Source: Harriotta raleighana (taxonomy: Eukaryota). Taken from it: DNA of 64,000 bases. Under the pieces are notes generated by a model that saw only the letters and a program-made list of their open reading frames with translations, was not told the origin of the DNA and searched no databases. The first letter of the stretch is position 1; every line of letters begins with the position of its first letter. The DNA is taken from contig JBNZDD010013679.1 in the NCBI GenBank assembly GCA_050575255.1, positions 2,717,367 through 2,781,366 of the forward strand, given 5' to 3'. The position numbers and the translations under genes are program-made. Positions 3,857 to 51,205 of this stretch are shown piece after piece.

Positions 3857-5177
3857 ACAACAACAACAACTTTGATTTATATAGCGCCCTCCATGCCGGA
3901 CGCCATCTCAGAGCGCTTCACAATAGCAGATCCTGGGACTGAGCTAGGGGCAGGGGTAGAAAGGTGACCAAAGGCACGGTCAAAGAGAAAGGTCTTCAGC
4001 TGGGACCTGAAACTGAGAAAAGAGGGTCTATGCAAAGGGAATGAGGAAGGGAGTTCCAAATCCTTGGGCGTAGTGGCTGAAGGCAAGGCTGCCGAGGGTG
4101 GAGAGGAGGATTCGGGGAACATGGAGGAGGCCAGACCCGTTGGAGCGAAGGCACCTGGTTTGAGGAGAGAGGAGGTCAGAGAGGTAGGGAAGGGCAGAGG
4201 AGTGGAGAAATTTGAAGACAAGGATGAGGATCTTGAAATCGATCCTCTCGGGGACAGGGAGCCAGTGGAGGCTGGCAAGGTCTGGGGTAATGGGGAAGTG
4301 AAGTTTAGTGCAGGTAAGAATGTGGGGGGCAGAGTTCTGAATCAGCTGGACTCTGTGGATTGTGGAGGAGGGGAGATTGGTGAGGAGGACATTGGAATAG
4401 TCCAGCCGAGAGGTGACAAAGGCATTGACCAGGGTTTCAGCAGCTTTTGGGGTGGGGTATTGCCGGAGACGGGCGATCCATCAGAGGTGGAAGAAGACGG
4501 TGCTGGTGAGGGACCAGATGTGGAGGAGGAAGGACAGTTGGAGGTCGAACCTGATGCCTAGGTTGCACACAGTTTCGGAGAGTTTTAGGGGCAGACCGGG
4601 AAGGTGGAGGAGGTGAGAACCATGCGAATGGAGACGTTGACGAGAGTCAAAGAGTATGGCCTCCTTCTTGTAAACATTCAACTGCAAGAATTTTATGCTC
4701 ATCCAGCTCCTGATGTCTAACAGGCAGGCTGACAGAAGATGAGGGGATTGGGGGTCGCAAAGTGAAGTGGAGAAATAGGGCTGGGTGTCATCCACATACA
4801 TATGGAAGCGTGCCCGATGTCTGCGGTTGACATCCTCAAGAGGGAGCGTATAGATGAGGAAGAGGAGGGGGCCAAGAAGGGATTGCTGGGGTACCCCACA
4901 GATAATAGGGTGAGAGCGAGTGGAAAAACCGTTTGTGGCAATGTACTACTTGCGGTTTGTGAGGTAGGACTCTAACCAGGTGAGTGCGGTCCCACTGAGG
5001 TGGATGACGGAGAACAGTTGGTGGAGGAGGATGGCGTGGTTGACTGTGTCGAACGCAGCAACAGGTCCAGTAGAACAAGAAGGCAGAGGGAGCCCTGGTC
5101 ACAGATAGAGAGGACGTTGTCACAAGGCGCAGTCTCTGTACTGTGGGCAGAGCGGAAACCAGACTGGAGGGGTTCGA
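3857..5177 (-). mobile_element. L2 LINE, 5'-truncated RT pseudogene, tail type B
   Basis: Minus-strand frameshifted RT motifs FEPLQSGFRSAHSTET, GVPQQSLLGPLLFLIY and YVDDTQ..WMSIKFLQLN; (GTT)n tail at 3857. Confidence 0.9.
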
Positions 5178-5562
5178 AGATGCCTTTATCACTTCTCGAC
5201 TTGAGTACTCTAACGTCCTCCTCACCGGTCTCCCCATCTCCACCATTCACATTCATACAAAACACTGCGGCCCACATTCTCACCTGCACCAAACTTTGTA
5301 CCTCAATTACCCAAAAAATCTGCAAACAACTGCACTGGCTCCCTATCATAGAGTGGATCGACTCTATCTGTCTAACCACCTCTTTCCTCAGAGCAATACC
5401 CACTTCTCCTTTCAGTCACTCCTCCCCGAAACATTGGAACTCCACTGAACACCTTTCTCTTCGACCACACTTACGGTCACCTTCCCCATGACTGAACCAT
5501 GGGCTCTGCCATTGTGAAGCACTCTTATTGCAGCCCGGTGTGGAGGACACTATATAAATGCA
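5178..5562 (+). mobile_element. L2 LINE 3' fragment (tail B), head-to-head with the previous copy
   Basis: AFITSRLEYSNVLLTGLP / IQNTAAHILT / LHWLP motifs; tail ends in 'ggaggacactatataaatgcaa'. Confidence 0.75.
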
Positions 5563-7514: not shown

Positions 7515-7833
7515 AGAGCTCCTGTAGCTCAGTGGTTAGAGCACTCACCTTACAAGCGAGAGACTTGTGTTCGAATCCAGGCAGATCAGGACAAAACATT
7601 GGGCAAGTTTCCTTACTCCACACGCCTAATAATAATCCGGCCTCCAAAAAACACTAAGAAAAATTGGTCATTTCAATCCACAACTGTTTGTGGACACTGC
7701 TGTGCGCAATTGGCTGCCGCATTTCAACCACAAATATACAGTTCACTTTACAGTACATTCTGTGAAGCACTTTGAGATATCGAAAAGATGTGAAAAGCGC
7801 TATATCAAATGCAAGGATTATTATTATTATTAT
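7515..7833 (+). mobile_element. Younger tRNA-derived SINE (family S-young), full length
   Basis: A box TAGCTCAGTGG, B box GTTCGAATCC, CORE-like 'ttgggcaagtttccttactcc', tail stem-loop plus (ATT)n, and a possible TSD attgta. Confidence 0.85.
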
Positions 7834-8894
7834 TGTACTTCTGGTTAGTGGAATGGTTTATCTTTCACTCTAGATAAAAATGAATTAATTTTGTGACAAA
7901 GTTAGAGTGAGTGAATAAGGGAAACTGTCAGACTGGTCAATGATTCAGTGTCTTCTGGTTATTGACCATCTTTATTTTCACCTGATATGCTAATTAAGAT
8001 ATCACCGTTCACAATTTCCACTTCATTGACACTTATTGCTTAGCAATTCACTCTTGGTTACCCTTGGTAAACTTACAGTCATTAATTTTTCAGTTTGAAC
8101 TACATTGAGCTTCATCAATATTCCCGGGCAGACACTGGGATGTGATCTATGCTTGCTCAAAAAATAGTATTTCATAGCGCAAACAAGAATTCCGCTATTT
8201 AATGTGTGCCCTTCTTACTCATTGGTAAAAAAAAGCATTGCAATGGATGACAATAGAGCTTGGATCAGATATCCATTCAGTTACAGTTGATTATCTTCCA
8301 GAGAAATCTGCAATACCTTTTATAATCCTAAATACACTATCTAACTGTAGTGTGCTATGGGAAAATGTAGCAGTGTAGTGATGAGAAGCCAATAACACTG
8401 TTTGAACTTCTTCTCTTGGGCTTTTCACTGACAGTGACAGATGGTTCTTCTTTTATTGAAAATAATTTCAAATCATTAAAGTATGAAGAACTAGGAGACA
8501 TTATGTGTACATGTATTTACACAAAAGAAGGTTTGAATCATTTATTGACTTAAATGATATGCCTATCAAAGATCTTTAAAGAGATTTCAATACCAAGCAA
8601 TAAAAACAAAACTGAAGGATTTGTTCTGGTGCAGGGAAGTAAAGTCATTTGCAATGATCTAATACTGTTCATATATAAGTTGTACAGTGACTGATAAATG
8701 GCAATATCCACTAAAGATTAAACATTGCTGTTGTTCAGTTTTGGTGCTAAGCATTCTGAATCATATTTTAACCCTTTAATAAAGCATAGATTTTTTTAAA
8801 GTATGTGTGCTGAAAGACATGTTTCATTGGTACGAAATTTTTGTTACAAAAAAGTACACCTGCATGGTTATGAGGCTCGGTATTGGCTTGTATC

Positions 8895-12640: not shown

Positions 12641-12744
12641 TTTCACTCAATATGTTGATATATTTTGCTCTTTATTGGAAATGGTATTTTAACTAAATTA
12701 AGAGTCCTCAGTCCACCCACAACAACTTCAACAACTATATGATC

Positions 12745-13510
12745 ACTCTTTGTGATGCCAGTCCCAGATATGGAGTGGACTACAATATGTACATGGATGA
12801 AACCCAACTGTATCTCTGTACCTTCACCCTTGATTCCATGACCATTGCTGTCTTGACAGAATGTCTGTCAGACATCAAGTCCTGGGTGAGAGCTAACTTT
12901 CTTCAATTGAACATCAACAAGACCGAGGACCTCCTGATTGCCTCCCATCAGCACCTCCACACCTCAGATGCTGGCAGCATCATCATCCATGGATGCACAT
13001 CCCTACTCACTAAACCAGTCCGGAACTTTGGTATCTTGGTCTATCCTTTCTACCCTTCATCCCTGCCATGACCTGCTCAATCTTCCCACAACTCCGCTAC
13101 ATTGCCCGACTCTGCCACTAACTCACACTACAGATCGCAGAAACTCACATATATGCTTTCATAACATCCAGGTTTGACTATACAATCCCATTGTTTTGTA
13201 GGGCTCTGCAACTCCCTCCACAGACAGCAGATTATCCAGAACTCTGAAGCCCATGTCCTCTCCCACGCTAGGCTCCGTGACCAAATCATGCCCACCTTCG
13301 CCTGACTCCACTGCCTTACTATCACACAGAGGATACAGATCAAGATCCTGGTCCTTACCTTCAAAGTTCCCCATGGCCTCGCTCCCCCCTACTTCTGTAA
13401 TCTCCTAAACCCCTACCAAACTGCCTGCTCCCTCCATTCGGCGGAGCAGCACTTTTGGCCATCCTCCCAATGTGAAAGGTGCTATGCAAACTTAAATTGT
13501 TCTTGTTACT
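12745..13510 (+). mobile_element. L2 LINE RT fragment
   Basis: ORF 12739..13071 YMDETQLYL..CLSDIKSWVRANFLQLNINKTE; decayed tail at about 13450-13510. Confidence 0.85.
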
Positions 13511-14339
13511 GATAAACATGTAAGACAAATCACAAATTAGCAAATTTGATCATGGTAGAGATTGCACTCAGTGAAAATTAGCACATTGGATGTTTAAAGA
13601 ATTGCAACTTTACCCCTAACGTGAACTAAAGAATAAAACACATGCACGAAAGGAAACTGTTTGGAATTTTTTGTTCTCAAATTGGGTAAAATGTGAGTCA
13701 TTTACAGAAATGGGAATCGGTGGACTAAAAGAGATTAAATGAGTCATGAAACTCATTTCGGAAAGTACAGCGAGTGACCTACAACGTAATGATTCATTAG
13801 GTCCAACCGGAGTTCAGCAGCTAATGAAATCAAGTAGGAAATTCTACTCCAAAATGACATGACAACAAGCCAACAACTTAAAGTGGTATTTAAACGTAAT
13901 TAAATGGTGAATTCAGCTGAAGGGAATTTGTCAAAGTGCATCGTACCTGGGAAGGAAATCTAGATTGCCGGCTGCACAATCACAACCCAGTAAATGGAAA
14001 TATTTACTTTATTATTTTTTGATTACTTTTTTTAAATTTATATTTAGATAGTCAGTCAGTCAGTTAGTTTTTCGGTGTCAAAATTTGGTCAAATTGTGGA
14101 ATACTGTCCTACCTTTGAAACTGTTTTTCTGTTAGTTTTGAAAAAACTTCCAGGAAAAATGTTCTCAAAATTCAGTCTGTTAATGAACTTCATGAAATGA
14201 GAAGATTGATCTGGATGAAGAAGGCCTTTTAACCCATCCTATTTCATCTATCTAGAACACTCACCCTACCATTTTGTCATCATCAAATGTGCCAATTTCT
14301 GGATGATTTGAAAGACTAAGTAAATAGAAAAAATCTAGA

Positions 14340-14571
14340 CAAAACACAAAATACTGCAGATCCTGGAAGTCGAAAACCAAAATATAAATTACTGGGAGCA
14401 CTCAGCAGGTCATGCAGCATCTATGGAGAAAGGAAAGTGAGTCAACGTTTCGCGTCCACTACCAAAGGGTTCTGACGAAGGGCCATGAACCCGAAACGTT
14501 GACTTACTTTCCTTTCTACATAGATGCTGCCTGATCTGTTGAGTTTTCCCAACAATTTCTGTTTTTGTTTC
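14340..14571 (+). mobile_element. Penelope-like (pLTR-derived) fold-back element
   Basis: About 85-bp imperfect inverted arms (14372-14456 and 14489-14571) around a hammerhead core; 14-bp TSD AGAAAAAATCTAGA (14326) / AGAGAAAATCTAGA (14572). Confidence 0.75.
14467..14505 (+). ncRNA. Minimal type I hammerhead ribozyme motif
   Basis: GGGTT-CTGACGA-A-GGG(ccatgaa)CCC-GAAA-CG-TT-GACTT: core boxes, stem II, stem I GGGUU/GACUU, and palindromic ACGU in place of helix III. Confidence 0.6.
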
Positions 14572-15059
14572 AGAGAAAATCTAGATTTGGGTGGAATTTG
14601 AAAACATGAATTTTTTTATTTCAAAATAAATTGTAGCCATTTAATCACCAGCCTGACATCTGTCAAATGCCCTGGGTAGTGATTTGTATGTTTAGTTTAT
14701 TAACCATTCATCTAAAATCTACAGAAAAGTTATATTTCAACATTTGAAAGGACAGCATTGTTTAGATTAATAACTAAGTGCAGCATATAGGTTTCATGTT
14801 ACAAATGTGTTCGCAGAAATGCTGCCTAATAACAGGTTCTCCCCATGGGGTGTTTTAGTTCTGTATCCATATCTTCTCTTGTCCATCCTTGCATCTTCTT
14901 CAAAATTCTGCATCCAGCTCTTATGGAACTCTTTCTTTCCTCCTCCATCCCTACCTTTAAAGCCCACTTTTCTTTCAATCACACTTCAGGTGCCCTCGCT
15001 TGCAGCTGAGGTTCCCAGTTAGTTCTGTGAGGCTTCCTCAAACATACAACAACAGGCTA

Positions 15060-15660
15060 TCCTTCTTGTGGGGATGTTATCAGAGTCTTCTTGGAGCTCG
15101 TTTGATTCCAAGGTGACATGCCTGGCAAGGAAATGTTAGAATCAAGCCAGTCCTCATTGGTGGTCTCACTGGTCCAGTTCCTGAGCAGGTTGGGTCCACA
15201 GCATTCCAGCTGATGACAGCACAGCCAGCCTGGCTCATCATCAGGATCTGGACGAGCAGACAAGTCACTGGGAGCAGGGAGTTATCCTACTCAGTTCCTG
15301 TTTACTCTGTAAGCCAAAGCCCTAATGGGTGGGGTGGTCCTAGCTGAATAGACAGTGGGAAAACTTGCTGGATAGCAATAACTAATGGCAAGCTAATGTT
15401 TTAGCTGGTTAGACTCCAGCAGCAGCCCTTCTGGCGTCCAGGTGTCCCAGAAATACTTTCCTGAATCAGATATACAGGATGTGACCCTCCAGGAAAAGAC
15501 TGTGCATTCCATTGAATCAATCTATTTCTGGAATTTTCATGTGTAGGTGGGATGCATGGAAATCTCAACTTGTTTTGGAAAATATTAAGCACGGTGATAG
15601 GGTTCCACATGTGTCAGACACCCAGCTGAACCCCCATCCCCCACCCACCCCAACTACAAA
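15060..15660 (+). repeat. Unclassified ancient interspersed repeat (family U), longest copy
   Basis: Aligns by eye over about 560 bp with the reverse complement of 24425-24980, and partly with five other loci. Confidence 0.7.
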
Positions 15661-22724: not shown

Positions 22725-23252
22725 ATCCACCTCAACCTCCTCTCACATCCACTTCTGTGGCAACATGTTTTCCAGGTTCGAATCTTACTTCACCATCACT
22801 TCCCATCACCACCAGCTTTTTCCAAATGTTCTTTTCCTCCAGTCTCCGCATGATCGCTTGCGGCATACCCACGAGGCTCTATCTTTGGTCCCCTCCTTTT
22901 TTTCATTTATTTGCTCACTCTCGGCAATGGCATCTGCAGACATGGGGTTAACTTCCACATATATGTGGATGACACACAAATGTATTTCTCCTCCTCCAGC
23001 TGTGATCCTAGGTACACTTGCTTGTCATATATCAAGCACCAACTTTCTGCAGCTGAATCTTTACCATGGTAGTCTATCTTAATGCCTTTACTTTTCTTCC
23101 TCTTTCCTCCTCTCCAAATTAAACCTGAGGACTTTCCTTTTTGGCCGTCAGCTCTCCTCTTCTCTGCTCAGTCAAACTCCGCCGCTATTAAGTACTATGA
23201 AACACGACCTCGTATGAAGGGTACTATATAAATGCAAGTTATTGTTGTTGCT
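22725..23252 (+). mobile_element. Degraded L2 RT fragments with type-B tail
   Basis: 'acttccacatatatgtggatgacacacaa' (FHIYVDDTQ), 'aactttctgcagctgaat', tail 'ctatataaatgcaagttattgttg'. Confidence 0.65.
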
Positions 23253-35274: not shown

Positions 35275-35660
35275 CCCCAAATAGATCAGAAGAAGAAGGC
35301 CCTTCTGGCCAATCCAATCTTGTCTCTCCAGAAGACCCACTCTACAATTATCCCATCACAGTATCAAGTTTATTTTTAAATGAGTCCAGTGTCCTGGCCT
35401 CAATTACCTTTCATGATAACCTGTTCTAGTCATTCATCACTTTCTGAATAAGGATAAACTTCCTGGTTCCTGGTTCTGAGGAAGGGTTGTGGACCCGAAA
35501 CGTTGACTCACTTCTCCATGGATGCTGCCTGACCTGCTGAGACTTCTGTTTTTGTTTTAAACTTCATGGTCCTGAAATTGCTCTTTACAACACTAAACGC
35601 ATGTCCTCTTGTTTTACTACCTTGTTGCCTTGTAAAGTGTGATCTGGGTTTCACATCTTG
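35275..35660 (-). mobile_element. Old CR1 3' fragment hosting a Penelope-like insert
   Basis: 'agaagaaggcccttctggccaatc..gcctcaattacctt..ctgttctagtcattcatcactttctg..gcatgtcctcttgttttac'. Confidence 0.55.
35472..35557 (+). mobile_element. Penelope-like half element with hammerhead core
   Basis: GGTT-CTGAGGA-A-GGGT(tgtgg)ACCC-GAAA-CGTTGAC followed by the right arm of the 14340 element; flanks taaacttcctggttcctg / taaacttcatggtcctg resemble a TSD. Confidence 0.7.
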
Positions 35661-39366: not shown

Positions 39367-40054
39367 GAGCCTTATAGCTCAATGGTTAGAGCACTCGCCT
39401 CATAAGCAAGAGACCTGGGTTAAATTCCTGGCAGGCCGAAATCTCAGGCAAGTTTGCTTACTCCCTGATAATCATCCCTCAAGATGAAAAACAACAACAA
39501 CAACTTGCATTTATATCCTCCAGGTGGGTCAGTGTCTCAAACCGCTTCACAATGGCAATGGCCAAGACTGAGCCAGGGGATGGGGGAGGGGAAAGCTGTG
39601 GTCGAAAAGAAAGGTCTTCAGCCGCAACCTGAAGTTGGGAAGGGAGGGGGCAAAACAACAATAAAATTACGGTACATTTATAGCGCGGCTTTCACATCAG
39701 GAGGATGTCCCAAGGCACTGGGGTTGAGGGAGGGAGTTTCAAAGTTTCAGGGCATAGTGGCTGAAAGCACGGTTGCCGATGATGGAGGGGAGGATTTGGG
39801 TAACAAGTAGGAGGCCGGACTCAGTAGAGAGGAGGCAGCGGATACTGCTGTGAGGAAAGAGGAGATTGGAAAAGTAGGGGATCACTCAATCCATGACTGT
39901 TTCTGGGACACTGCTGTGCGCAATTGGCTTCTGTGGTTCACTCACAAATATACAGTCAATTCAATTCACAGTATATTCTGTGAAGCGTTTTGAGACATCT
40001 TGAAGTCATGAAAAGCACTGTATCGAATGCAAGGATTATTATTAGTATTATTAT
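39367..40054 (+). mobile_element. S-young SINE split by nested L2 pieces (39487-39880, minus strand)
   Basis: Head at 39367-39470, tail at 39882-40054. The inner type-B L2 is itself interrupted by a type-A tail at 39654-39720. Confidence 0.8.
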
Positions 40055-40854: not shown

Positions 40855-41172
40855 ATAATAAAAATAATAATCCTTGCATTTGATACAGCGCTTTTCATGT
40901 ATTCTAGACGTCTCAAAGCACTTAACAGAATATGCTGTAAAGTGAATTGACTGTATGTTTGTGGATGAAACGCAGCAGCCCACAGCAGTGTCCCACAAAT
41001 AGTCGTGGATTGAAATGACCAATTTTTTATTATTGTGTTTTTTCGAAGGGATTATTATTATAGATGTATGGAGTAAGGAAACTTGCCCAAGGTTTCACCC
41101 TGATCTGCCTGGATTTGAACACAGGTCTCATTCTTGTAAGGCGAGTGCTCTAACCACTGAGCTACAGGACTC
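40855..41172 (-). mobile_element. S-young SINE, full length
   Basis: Reverse complement begins GGAGTCCTGTAGCTCAGTGGTTAGAGCACTCGCCTTACAAG and ends in the (ATT)n tail. Confidence 0.9.
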
Positions 41173-49230: not shown

Positions 49231-49249
49231 TCTGCTTCTTTATCACATT

Positions 49250-49700
49250 TACAACAACAATAACTTGCATTTATATAGCGCCCTACATGCTGGGCAGTGT
49301 ATCAGAGCACTTAACAATTTTGCAGCCTGAGGCTGCCAGGAGGAGGGGAAAGATGACTGTAAGCGTGGTCAAATAGAAAGGTCGTCAGACATAATCTGAA
49401 GATGGGGAAGGAGGGGGGTAAGACAAAGGGGTTGAGGGGGGAAATTCCAAAGTTTTGAGATGTAATGGCTGAAAGCACGGTCGCCGATAGTGGAACAGAA
49501 CTTTTGGGGGATATGGATGAGGCTAGACCAAGTAGAGAGGAGGCGGTAGGTACTGCCATGAGGAGAGAATAGGTTAGAGAGATAGGGGAGTGCCGAGGAG
49601 TGGAGGGATTTAAACAATAGAGCGAGTATCTTGAATCAATCCGCTCTGTGATAGGAAGCCAGTGCAGTTTTGCAAGGACTGGGGTGATCGGAGTGTAAGA
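49250..49700 (-). mobile_element. L2 3' fragment (tail B), tail-to-tail with the previous copy
   Basis: ORF 49369..49617 FKSLHSSALPYLS..IGDRAFSHYISKLWN. Confidence 0.85.
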
Positions 49701-50399
49701 TATTGTAATGAATGTGTTAAATAATATCTCAAATTATATTAGTGATACAGTAAATATGTATATATATTGCAATATATGATCAATCACATATGATGGGAAT
49801 TGGTTGTGACTAGCTTCGCAGAAGAAACAAAAGACTGTTTATAAACAACAAACTGCTTGCAGTCCTTATCAGTAATTTTCTCGTGGTAAAATGGTCTGTA
49901 GGTTGGATAGAGAGCTGTGTTGCATTTGTTTTTTTTTAAAAAAAGGATCTATCTTGCAAAAAATAATGGGTGAAAGGTCACTTAATGGTCTGTATAAACA
50001 GAGATCAATTCAGAAGAGAGAATTGAAGAAGAAAGAATTGATACCTGAAAGAAAGAATTGAAAACGAGGGATCAAATTCAACATACCATAATAGAATTTG
50101 AACGTGACATGATGCAGTACCTGGATACTTTGGGAGCTGTGGCTTTCAAGTGAGTGATTTCATATTGGCTTTCATATCAGCTGCAAAAATGAACTAGATG
50201 AATACCTGAAAATAAGTAAATGATAGGCATATGAAGAAATGCATTGAAAGTATTGTCAGCCAGTTGTGCTTCCTTTGTGCTGTGATTTTGTATGATTCTA
50301 AATGATTAATAGAGGTCAATTTTTCTGCAAATGTCCAAAAGAAACTTTTAACTTATTTTATTCTTCCGTAGTATAGGACAATAATCACTGTAACACGTG

Positions 50400-51205
50400 C
50401 ACGATCTAAAGATGGGAAAGGAGGGAGTGAGGCGAAGGGGTTGAGGAGGTAAGTTCCAAAGTTGTAAGGCATAGCGACTCAAAGCATGGCAGCTGATGGT
50501 GGAGCGGAGGATTCAGGGAACAAGGAGGAGGTCGGATCCAGTAGAGCGGAGGCAGTGGGTGTTGCTGTGAGGAGAGAGGAGGTCAGAGAGATAGGGGGGT
50601 GCCGAGGAGTGGAGGGATTTAAACATTAGATTGAGGATCTTGAAGTCAAATTTTGTGAATGGGGGAGAAGGTAAGACTGGCAAGGAGGGCGTAAGAATAG
50701 TCCAGCCAAGAGATGTCAAAGGCATGGAGCAGTTTCGGCAGCTTTTGGAGTGAGCTGTTGATGGAGACAGGCAATGTGGCGGAGATGGAAGAAAGCGATG
50801 CTGGTTAGGGACCTGATGTGGGGGAGGAAGGATAACAGGGGTTTGAGCTTGAAGCTTAAGTTGCGCACAGGTTCAGACAGTTTTAAGAACAAGTGGAGTA
50901 GGGTGAGGAGGTCGGAACCGTGGGACAAATGTCAACGGGAACTAAAAAGTTTGGCTTCCACCTTGTTGATGTTTAACTGCAGGAAATTTGCACTCATCCA
51001 GCTCTCGATTTCCAACAGACAAACTGACAGAACATTAGGAGACTGGGGATCGCAGCTGGAGGTAGAGAAGTAGAGTTGGGTGTCATCCTCATACACGTGG
51101 AAGTTAACATCACCGAGAAGTGACATCACCTAGAGGAAGCATGTAGATGAGTAAGAGAAGGGGGGGTCAAGGATGGATCCTTGGGCTACCCCACGGTTGA
51201 CCGGG
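50400..51205 (-). mobile_element. L2 RT fragment
   Basis: ORF 50932..51129 FHVYEDDTQLYF..WMSANFLQLNINKVE; GVAQGSIL motif near 51180. Confidence 0.9.

What the first reader, a model, noticed from the sequence alone, without database searches (positions are those of the whole stretch)
14340..14571. TSD-flanked 232-bp fold-back retroelement carrying a minimal hammerhead ribozyme next to its own antisense arm
Seen: hammerhead core CTGACGA (14472-78) and GAAA (14493-96), stem II GGG/CCC, stem I GGGUU/GACUU, and palindromic ACGU where helix III should be. The predicted cut is after GUU at 14500, and there is an extra A after A9. The motif sits at the apex of an ~85-bp inverted repeat, and the whole unit has a 14-bp TSD (13/14 match), so it inserted as a discrete non-coding unit. 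Established: Penelope-like elements carry minimal hammerheads lacking a stable helix III that are proposed to cleave as dimers, and an extra A after A9 occurs in natural hammerheads. Inference: this is a non-autonomous, retrozyme-like Penelope derivative. Its left arm pairs with GAAACGTTGAC and would lock the ribozyme off in a read-through transcript, which could make intronic copies tolerable and yield a long hairpin for Dicer or ADAR.
Basis: partly seen in the sequence, partly recalled or inferred. Interest (0 to 1): 0.75.

Follow-up and report, generated by a model that had tools for sequence, protein, structure and literature searches.

The report
Decayed mirror-image Penelope retrotransposon stub
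This hairpin-shaped insertion is real, but it is an old, mutated copy of a repeat found in thousands of copies, most likely two back-to-back end stubs of a known kind of jumping gene (Penelope-like), and its small self-cutting RNA motif is probably silent.

Summary
In detail: minimal hammerhead core, long inverted repeat and flanking duplication are where reported and beyond chance. The unit is better read as two 5'-truncated copies of one repeat end, joined head to head by a 5-nt filler: a minus-strand copy (14340-14463) with a 30-nt tail and a plus-strand copy (14469-14574) without it. Genomic reads show thousands of family copies, and other copies run on past this apex. Inverted copy, one-sided tail and short duplication are the published insertion signature of Penelope-like elements (PLEs), whose ends carry such hammerheads. 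This copy is old (right junction shared with two species 7-9% diverged) and has lost 2 of 5 family stem II pairs. The antisense 'lock' is real in folding models (25 kcal/mol), but follows from the geometry; the arm-less motif also misfolds, and nothing shows selection or transcription. It is not a retrozyme: no tandem units, and all three window arms run through the cut site. No PLE coding sequence could be linked here. The scan noted this before: 8 findings in this genome, 48 in at least 12 genomes. Verdict: new member of a known kind, low interest.

The parts
14330..14339 (+). Left copy of the target duplication, exact 10-bp core (extends to 14326 with one mismatch)
14340..14369 (-). 30-nt tail, present on this arm only; 28 of 30 letters equal the continuation that family reads show behind 14574
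   Evidence: (table 7, 2,558 reads in X11)
14370..14463 (-). 5'-truncated copy of the repeat end; starts inside stem II, so it lacks the CUGANGA box but runs through the cut site; forms the antisense arm
   Evidence: 75 of 94 columns identical to the plus-strand copy
14464..14468 (.). 5-nt filler at the head-to-head junction, not matching the family continuation of either arm
   Evidence: loose ends behind 14463 and before 14469
14469..14574 (+). 5'-truncated, tail-less copy of the repeat end; starts 3 nt before the hammerhead core
14472..14503 (+). Minimal type I hammerhead motif: core 14472-78, extra A 14479, stem II reduced to 3 pairs, GAAA 14493-96, palindromic CG, predicted cut after 14500
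   Evidence: (published consensus)
14576..14585 (+). Right copy of the target duplication, exact 10-bp core (14572-85 if the 3 shared bases and one mismatch are counted)
35473..35557 (+). Second, single-arm family copy with a 5-pair stem II (one G-U), starting at the same family position as 14469; flanked by its own 17-18 bp duplication (35455-72 / 35558-74)
   Evidence: 14 of 20,000 random flank pairs reach the score

Best explanation
This is an old, mutated copy of a high-copy repeat, most likely a minimal insertion of an endonuclease-bearing Penelope-like retrotransposon: two shortened copies of the element's ribozyme-bearing end joined head to head, probably each primed from one side of a staggered cut, with a hammerhead motif that is predicted to be inactive here. 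Steps. (1) Shown: two 5'-truncated copies in opposite orientation, 5-nt filler, tail on one arm only, flanking duplication. (2) From the literature: PLE protein nicks and extends both target strands and starts reverse transcription at two sites, the stretch between them being the tail. (3) Inferred: the top-strand end primed at the outer start site (tailed arm), the bottom-strand end at the inner site (tail-less arm), perhaps helped by the 3 bases shared by target and element; the two cDNAs stopped at or in the uncleaved hammerhead and were end-joined. (4) Shown: later decay broke 2 of 5 stem II pairs. (5) Predicted: any read-through RNA folds into a long hairpin that hides the motif; this follows from the geometry and needs no selection.
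For: Anatomy equals the published signature: inverted 5'-truncated copy, 30-40 bp tail at one end, 8-10 bp duplications, head-to-head most frequent (PMC3846280; PMC8557442). Motif fits the published consensus (PMC4209133 supplement Fig. S3), and opposite-strand pairs of such motifs 100-700 bp apart are reported there. Read depth 5,800-10,700 on the element against a mean of 2.3 over 14 chosen flank bins: about 2,500 to 4,700 times per bin. Family reads continue past both sides of the apex (1,842 and 2,223 loose ends) and the 12 filler rows shown for X5 (145 more rows not shown) differ from each other. A single-arm copy with its own duplication lies in the window. Family stem II reads GGGUC/GACCC, a second group AGGUC/GACCU (read from loose-end consensus lines). 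3 of 3 window arms span the cut site. Right junction is bridged by contigs of organisms B and C, 7.4% and 8.8% diverged; arms differ at 19 of 94 columns. Both-strand nicking and extension, two start sites, ribozyme dispensable for insertion in vitro: PMC11167929.
Against: No PLE reverse transcriptase or GIY-YIG sequence was linked to this repeat: none in the window and no whole genome is held, so the PLE assignment rests on the motif and the anatomy. One contig of organism C from another locus (record 19) and one short contig (record 18) span the apex in one piece with 1-2 gaps, so an apex of about this length recurs. All three window arms have G after the cut site; with the U before the core (seen in both sense copies) this gives a U-G closing pair, whereas 56 of 56 published motifs close with a Watson-Crick pair (my count by eye). 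PMC3846280 explains inverted junctions by self-priming on an antisense template, not by two-sided priming. Depth ratios are rough (flank bins range 0-6.5).
Confidence: 0.83

Rival explanations
1. The whole fold-back unit is a non-autonomous element that was transcribed and reinserted as one piece by PLE enzymes, with the antisense arm silencing its ribozyme.
For: One duplication flanks the whole unit. The left arm raises the cost of the active fold to 25.5 kcal/mol. Two contigs of organism C span an apex of similar length at about 81-82% identity (records 18 and 19).
Against: Family reads run on past both sides of the apex and fillers vary. A single-arm copy inserted on its own. The arm-less motif is already 5-8 kcal/mol from the active fold, and single minimal motifs showed no cleavage in vitro (PMC4209133), so there is little to lock. 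Of 19 arm differences 5 stay as G-U in a plus transcript, 6 in a minus transcript, 8 in neither: no bias towards kept pairing. None of the 13 differences polarised with the second copy is A-to-G on the plus strand; two are T-to-C, one of them in an uncertain end column.
Confidence: 0.09
2. A single cDNA folded back or switched template (self-priming) and made the inverted arm; same PLE origin, other route to the hairpin.
For: PMC3846280 proposes self-priming from palindromes at inverted junctions. The apex holds a 6-bp self-complementary match (14467-72 with 14487-92).
Against: The arms end at different 3' positions (tailed and tail-less), which two start sites on two target strands explain directly; that 6-bp match depends on changes particular to this copy. 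This rival shares the identity with the best explanation and differs only in step 3 (I put two-sided priming at about 0.5, self-priming at about 0.3 within it).
Confidence: 0.25
3. A non-LTR retrozyme monomer that spreads through self-cleaved circular RNA.
For: Non-coding (all three frames close within each arm), short, hammerhead-bearing; such elements are reported in one chondrichthyan genome and proposed to derive from PLE ends (bioRxiv 10.64898/2026.07.22.740005).
Against: Retrozymes are direct tandem repeats, mostly with canonical type I motifs (PMC7229834); here the copies are inverted or single and the motif is minimal. No arm begins at the cut site.
Confidence: 0.04
4. A miniature inverted-repeat DNA transposon with a chance hammerhead-like loop.
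For: Size, hairpin shape and high copy number.
Against: The inverted repeats do not reach both ends (30-nt one-sided tail), single arms insert alone, 5' ends are truncated, and the motif recurs with a compensatory stem II change.
Confidence: 0.02

Closest known systems
Insertion units of endonuclease-bearing Penelope-like elements with inverted pseudo-LTR and tail (Adineta Pen2a and others, PMC3846280, passages; PMC8557442, passages)
   Same: Head-to-head inverted 5'-truncated copy, tail of about 30 nt on one end only, short target duplication.
   Different: Here both copies are cut down to about 100-125 nt and no coding sequence is left; the duplication is 10-14 bp against 8-10 bp in Adineta.
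Minimal type I hammerheads (min-HHR) of metazoan PLE ends (PMC4209133; parts 1-2 of 4 and parts 1-2 of 3 of supplement file 2 read; file 1 not searchable)
   Same: Core box, extra base after A9, G-C at the base of stem II, GAAA, palindromic CG in place of helix III, short helix I; most copies dispersed; some opposite-strand pairs.
   Different: No cartilaginous fish among the 56 listed motifs; U-G closing pair of helix I; this copy has only 3 stem II pairs.
PAc (Poseidon of Anolis carolinensis; PMC11167929, parts 1-2 of 4 read)
   Same: Hammerhead upstream of two 3' end positions separated by a tail; A+T-rich target; copies not cut at the ribozyme site.
   Different: In PAc the coding frame starts in stem II and runs through the tail; here all three frames close within the arm.
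Non-LTR retrozymes (PMC7229834, passages; bioRxiv 10.64898/2026.07.22.740005, part 1 of 5 and passages)
   Same: Short, non-coding, type I hammerhead, likely PLE ancestry.
   Different: Defined by direct tandem units and circular RNA; neither is seen here.

Membership tests
min-HHR of metazoan PLEs | CUGANGA box, one extra base, GAAA, palindromic 15.2/16.2, UH | tested here: met
   consensus line of Fig. S3
min-HHR of metazoan PLEs | Stem II starting with G10.1-C11.1, with covariation in the family | tested here: met
   3 pairs here, 5 in the second copy and in the read consensus; a second read group has A-U at the first pair. Read from consensus lines, not from an alignment of copies.
min-HHR of metazoan PLEs | Short helix I closing on the cut site | tested here: inconclusive
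   3-4 family pairs with a U-G closing pair; 56 of 56 published motifs close Watson-Crick (by eye); pair probability at most 0.05 in the isolated motif
min-HHR of metazoan PLEs | Self-cleavage as a dimer or with PLE protein | not testable with these tools
   needs a bench assay
Endonuclease-bearing PLE insertion unit | 5'-truncated copy with adjacent inverted copy, head to head | tested here: met
Endonuclease-bearing PLE insertion unit | 30-40 bp tail at one end only | tested here: met
   30 nt at 14340-69; the family shows the same continuation
Endonuclease-bearing PLE insertion unit | Short target duplication | tested here: met
   10-14 bp here, 17-18 bp at the second copy; no empty site seen
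Endonuclease-bearing PLE insertion unit | The same end attached to an ORF with telomerase-like RT and GIY-YIG nuclease | not testable with these tools
   no whole genome held; no such ORF in the window; no family copy in the collections scanned
Non-LTR retrozyme | Direct tandem units, each with a hammerhead | tested here: not met
   2 motifs in 64 kb, 21 kb apart; arms inverted. Arrays elsewhere in the genome are not excluded.
Non-LTR retrozyme | Unit ends set by the cut site; circular RNA | tested here: not met
   3 of 3 arms span the cut site; circular RNA itself not testable
Rfam hammerhead families | Match to a covariance model | tested here: not met
   no hammerhead family at E up to 10 or at gathering score; the intact-looking second copy also scores nothing, so this says little about the motif
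MITE | Terminal inverted repeats at both ends | tested here: not met
   one-sided tail; single-arm insertion

The most novel reading that the evidence does not exclude
These stubs record the PLE integration reaction: a dimeric enzyme primes from both 3' overhangs of a staggered cut, uses the outer start site on one strand and the inner site on the other, and stops at the front edge of the uncleaved hammerhead. The ribozyme fold would then act as a 5' boundary for reverse transcription, not as a nuclease. Both sense copies in the window start at the same base, 3 nt before the core. My searches (by listing) showed no paper stating two-sided priming for PLEs; earlier scan notes raised the fixed start.
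Probability: 0.3. Interest if true: 0.45.

Novelty: new member of a known kind. Interest (0 to 1): 0.16.

Why it matters
As one locus it matters little: a decayed copy of a class whose motif (2014) and insertion shape (2013, 2021) are in print. As a family it offers thousands of tiny records of how PLEs insert, which is still open; their end positions could test two-sided priming and whether the ribozyme sets the 5' boundary. Self-contained hairpins of this size could also be common ADAR targets where they lie in transcripts: PMC5625713 (passages) reports this for a palindromic frog repeat and heavy editing of lizard Penelope repeats, but nothing here shows it for this locus.

Tried and rejected
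No whole genome is held, so no genome-wide alignment of copies. Pattern scans for family copies: viral contigs 0; metagenomes 0, then 8 loci that match over 21-25 bases only and were dropped as chance. Rfam: no hammerhead hit; a hairpin miRNA family matched at 33.8 bits against a cut-off of 195 and was rejected. Host gene: Pfam on 266 of 364 stop-to-stop frames of 55 aa or more and 34 of 124 shorter non-repeat frames gave 3 weak reverse-transcriptase hits and 1 weak unrelated hit, all below curated cut-offs; no exon found, so 'intronic' is neither shown nor excluded. Sequencing runs: no RNA holder listed. Empty site: organisms B and C already carry the right junction; the left junction in C has only 26 element letters and does not count as bridged. 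ADAR footprint between the arms: not found. A splice-acceptor-like end at 14573 ranks only in the top 6% of 3,815 YAG sites by a crude pyrimidine count: not pursued. Two copies of the arm-less motif did not fold into the dimeric hammerhead in a cofold model. A covariance model was not built from only three arms. Read depth exactly at the apex filler was not measured, so whether this junction is single-copy stays open. Paper searches showed no description of this family in a cartilaginous fish by listing; Repbase and Dfam could not be searched, supplement file 1 of PMC4209133 and the preprint's supplements were not seen and may bear on that.

Full report
Observation. The inverted repeat is 85 nt at 84% complementarity and the unit folds at -110.7 kcal/mol, better than 200 of 200 shuffles. 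A minimal hammerhead descriptor finds 2 sites in the window, both in this repeat family; 7 of 300 shuffled windows gave one site and none gave two. The flanking duplication has an exact 10-bp core, reached by 4 of 20,000 random flank pairs, and scores 13 of 14 when extended, reached by 22 of 20,000. No Rfam hammerhead model matches this site or the second one.

Setting. The window is about 40% G+C, CpG-poor and about 29% self-repeated, with LINE-like reverse transcriptase remnants and tRNA-headed short repeats. No host exon was found in 300 frames scanned (266 of 364 long frames, 34 of 124 short ones). Earlier scan notes call the genome a chimaera; I did not test that. The flank depth implies a genome near 0.8 Gb, a rough figure.

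The family. Raw genomic reads of organism A (run X11, about 2 in 100 of the run read), which agree with the unique flank at the listed sites where B and C differ (depth only 1-4), pile up at 5,800-10,700-fold on the element against a mean of 2.3 over 14 flank bins that I chose as unique. That is thousands of copies at 80% identity or more. The loose ends of these reads show what the family looks like. Behind 14574, 2,558 reads continue with 30 letters that equal the antisense of window 14340-14369 at 28 positions. So the left arm is a longer 3' end with a tail, the right arm a shorter one without, and the three bases at 14572-74 belong to target and element alike. Behind 14463, 1,842 reads continue with the antisense of the hammerhead core, and before 14469, 2,223 reads have other sequence with low agreement (0.50; 0.36-0.45 in the three contig sets). 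The 5 bases between the arms match neither continuation. The family stem II has 5 pairs, and a second read group has A-U in place of the first G-C pair, a compensatory change. These readings come from consensus lines of the best-supported rows (24 shown, 3,309 not shown), not from an alignment of single copies.

The second copy. At 35473-35557 the window holds a single arm with a 5-pair stem II. It starts at the same family base as the right arm, 3 nt before the core, and has its own 17-18 bp duplication (14 of 20,000 random pairs). Single arms therefore insert without a mirror partner. All three arms run through the predicted cut site, so the RNA that was copied had not been cleaved there.

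Age and state. Contigs of organisms B and C bridge the right junction with 55 and 39 element letters and differ from the window by 7.4% and 8.8%. The arms differ at 19 of 94 columns. Three changes in the right arm break 2 of the 5 stem II pairs. The differences show no preference for kept pairing on either strand (5, 6 and 8 of 19) and no A-to-G run.

The lock. Forcing the hammerhead fold costs 25.5 kcal/mol in the full unit, 7.8 without the left arm and 5.1 in the bare motif, where another hairpin forms. PMC4209133 found no cleavage for a single minimal motif and low cleavage for dimers; PMC11167929 found cleavage only with PLE protein, no need for it in insertion in vitro, and no RNA reads ending at the cut site. 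Any inverted copy that reaches into the motif must pair with it, so the lock needs no selection.

Mechanism. PMC3846280 and PMC8557442 (passages) describe PLE insertions as 5'-truncated copies, often with an adjacent inverted copy head to head, a 30-40 bp tail at one end and a short duplication. PMC11167929 (parts 1-2 of 4) shows nicking and extension of both target strands and two start sites for reverse transcription that bracket the tail. I infer that here each overhang of a staggered cut primed one short cDNA, one from each start site, and that the two were joined through a filler. Self-priming, proposed in PMC3846280, is the main alternative. Identity as a PLE stub I put at 0.83; the two-sided route at about even odds within that.

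Against this reading. No coding sequence ties the repeat to a PLE in my data. Two contigs of organism C span an apex of nearly this length in one piece at about 81-82% identity, one of them at another locus, which a mobile fold-back unit or a recurring stop point would both give; depth at the filler itself was not measured. The U-G pair closing helix I departs from 56 of 56 published motifs (my count by eye).

Membership and novelty. It meets the sequence features of PLE minimal hammerheads and three of four features of PLE insertion units; the fourth could not be tested. It fails the tandem and cut-site features of retrozymes (PMC7229834 passages; preprint 10.64898/2026.07.22.740005 part 1 and passages) and the terminal-repeat feature of MITEs. 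Six paper searches (listings only, apart from the papers named) showed no account of this family in cartilaginous fish; repeat databases were out of reach. The scan has 8 similar findings in this genome and 48 in at least 12 genomes; they are unchecked notes and not support. My reading was fixed before I saw them. Verdict: real, a new member of a known kind, interest 0.16.

Noticed in passing
window 35455-35574: Single-arm family copy with a better stem II and its own 17-18 bp duplication, starting at the same family base as the right arm of the finding.
   Followed up: yes
window 14552-14574 (+): The tail-less arm ends in a pyrimidine tract and CAG, like a splice acceptor, one base before the tail boundary; PLE ends are known to hold introns. 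Only top 6% of YAG sites by a crude count.
   Followed up: partly
window 14501 and homologous places: G after the cut site in all three arms, giving a U-G closing pair of helix I, unlike the published motifs.
   Followed up: partly
window 7518-7837, 39368-39503, 40855-41169, 55626-55949: Family of about 320-bp repeats, 81-85% alike; three copies start with an Rfam tRNA match: likely a tRNA-derived SINE.
   Followed up: no
window 3880-5490, 12697-13068, 22854-23069, 49246-51194: Broken LINE-like remnants; three frames give weak reverse-transcriptase hits.
   Followed up: no
window 13400-13547 and 15100-15600: Other high-copy repeats by read depth, 280-2,500-fold; not identified.
   Followed up: no
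X6 records 18 and 19: Contigs of organism C that span an apex of nearly the same length as this one, at least one at another locus.
   Followed up: no
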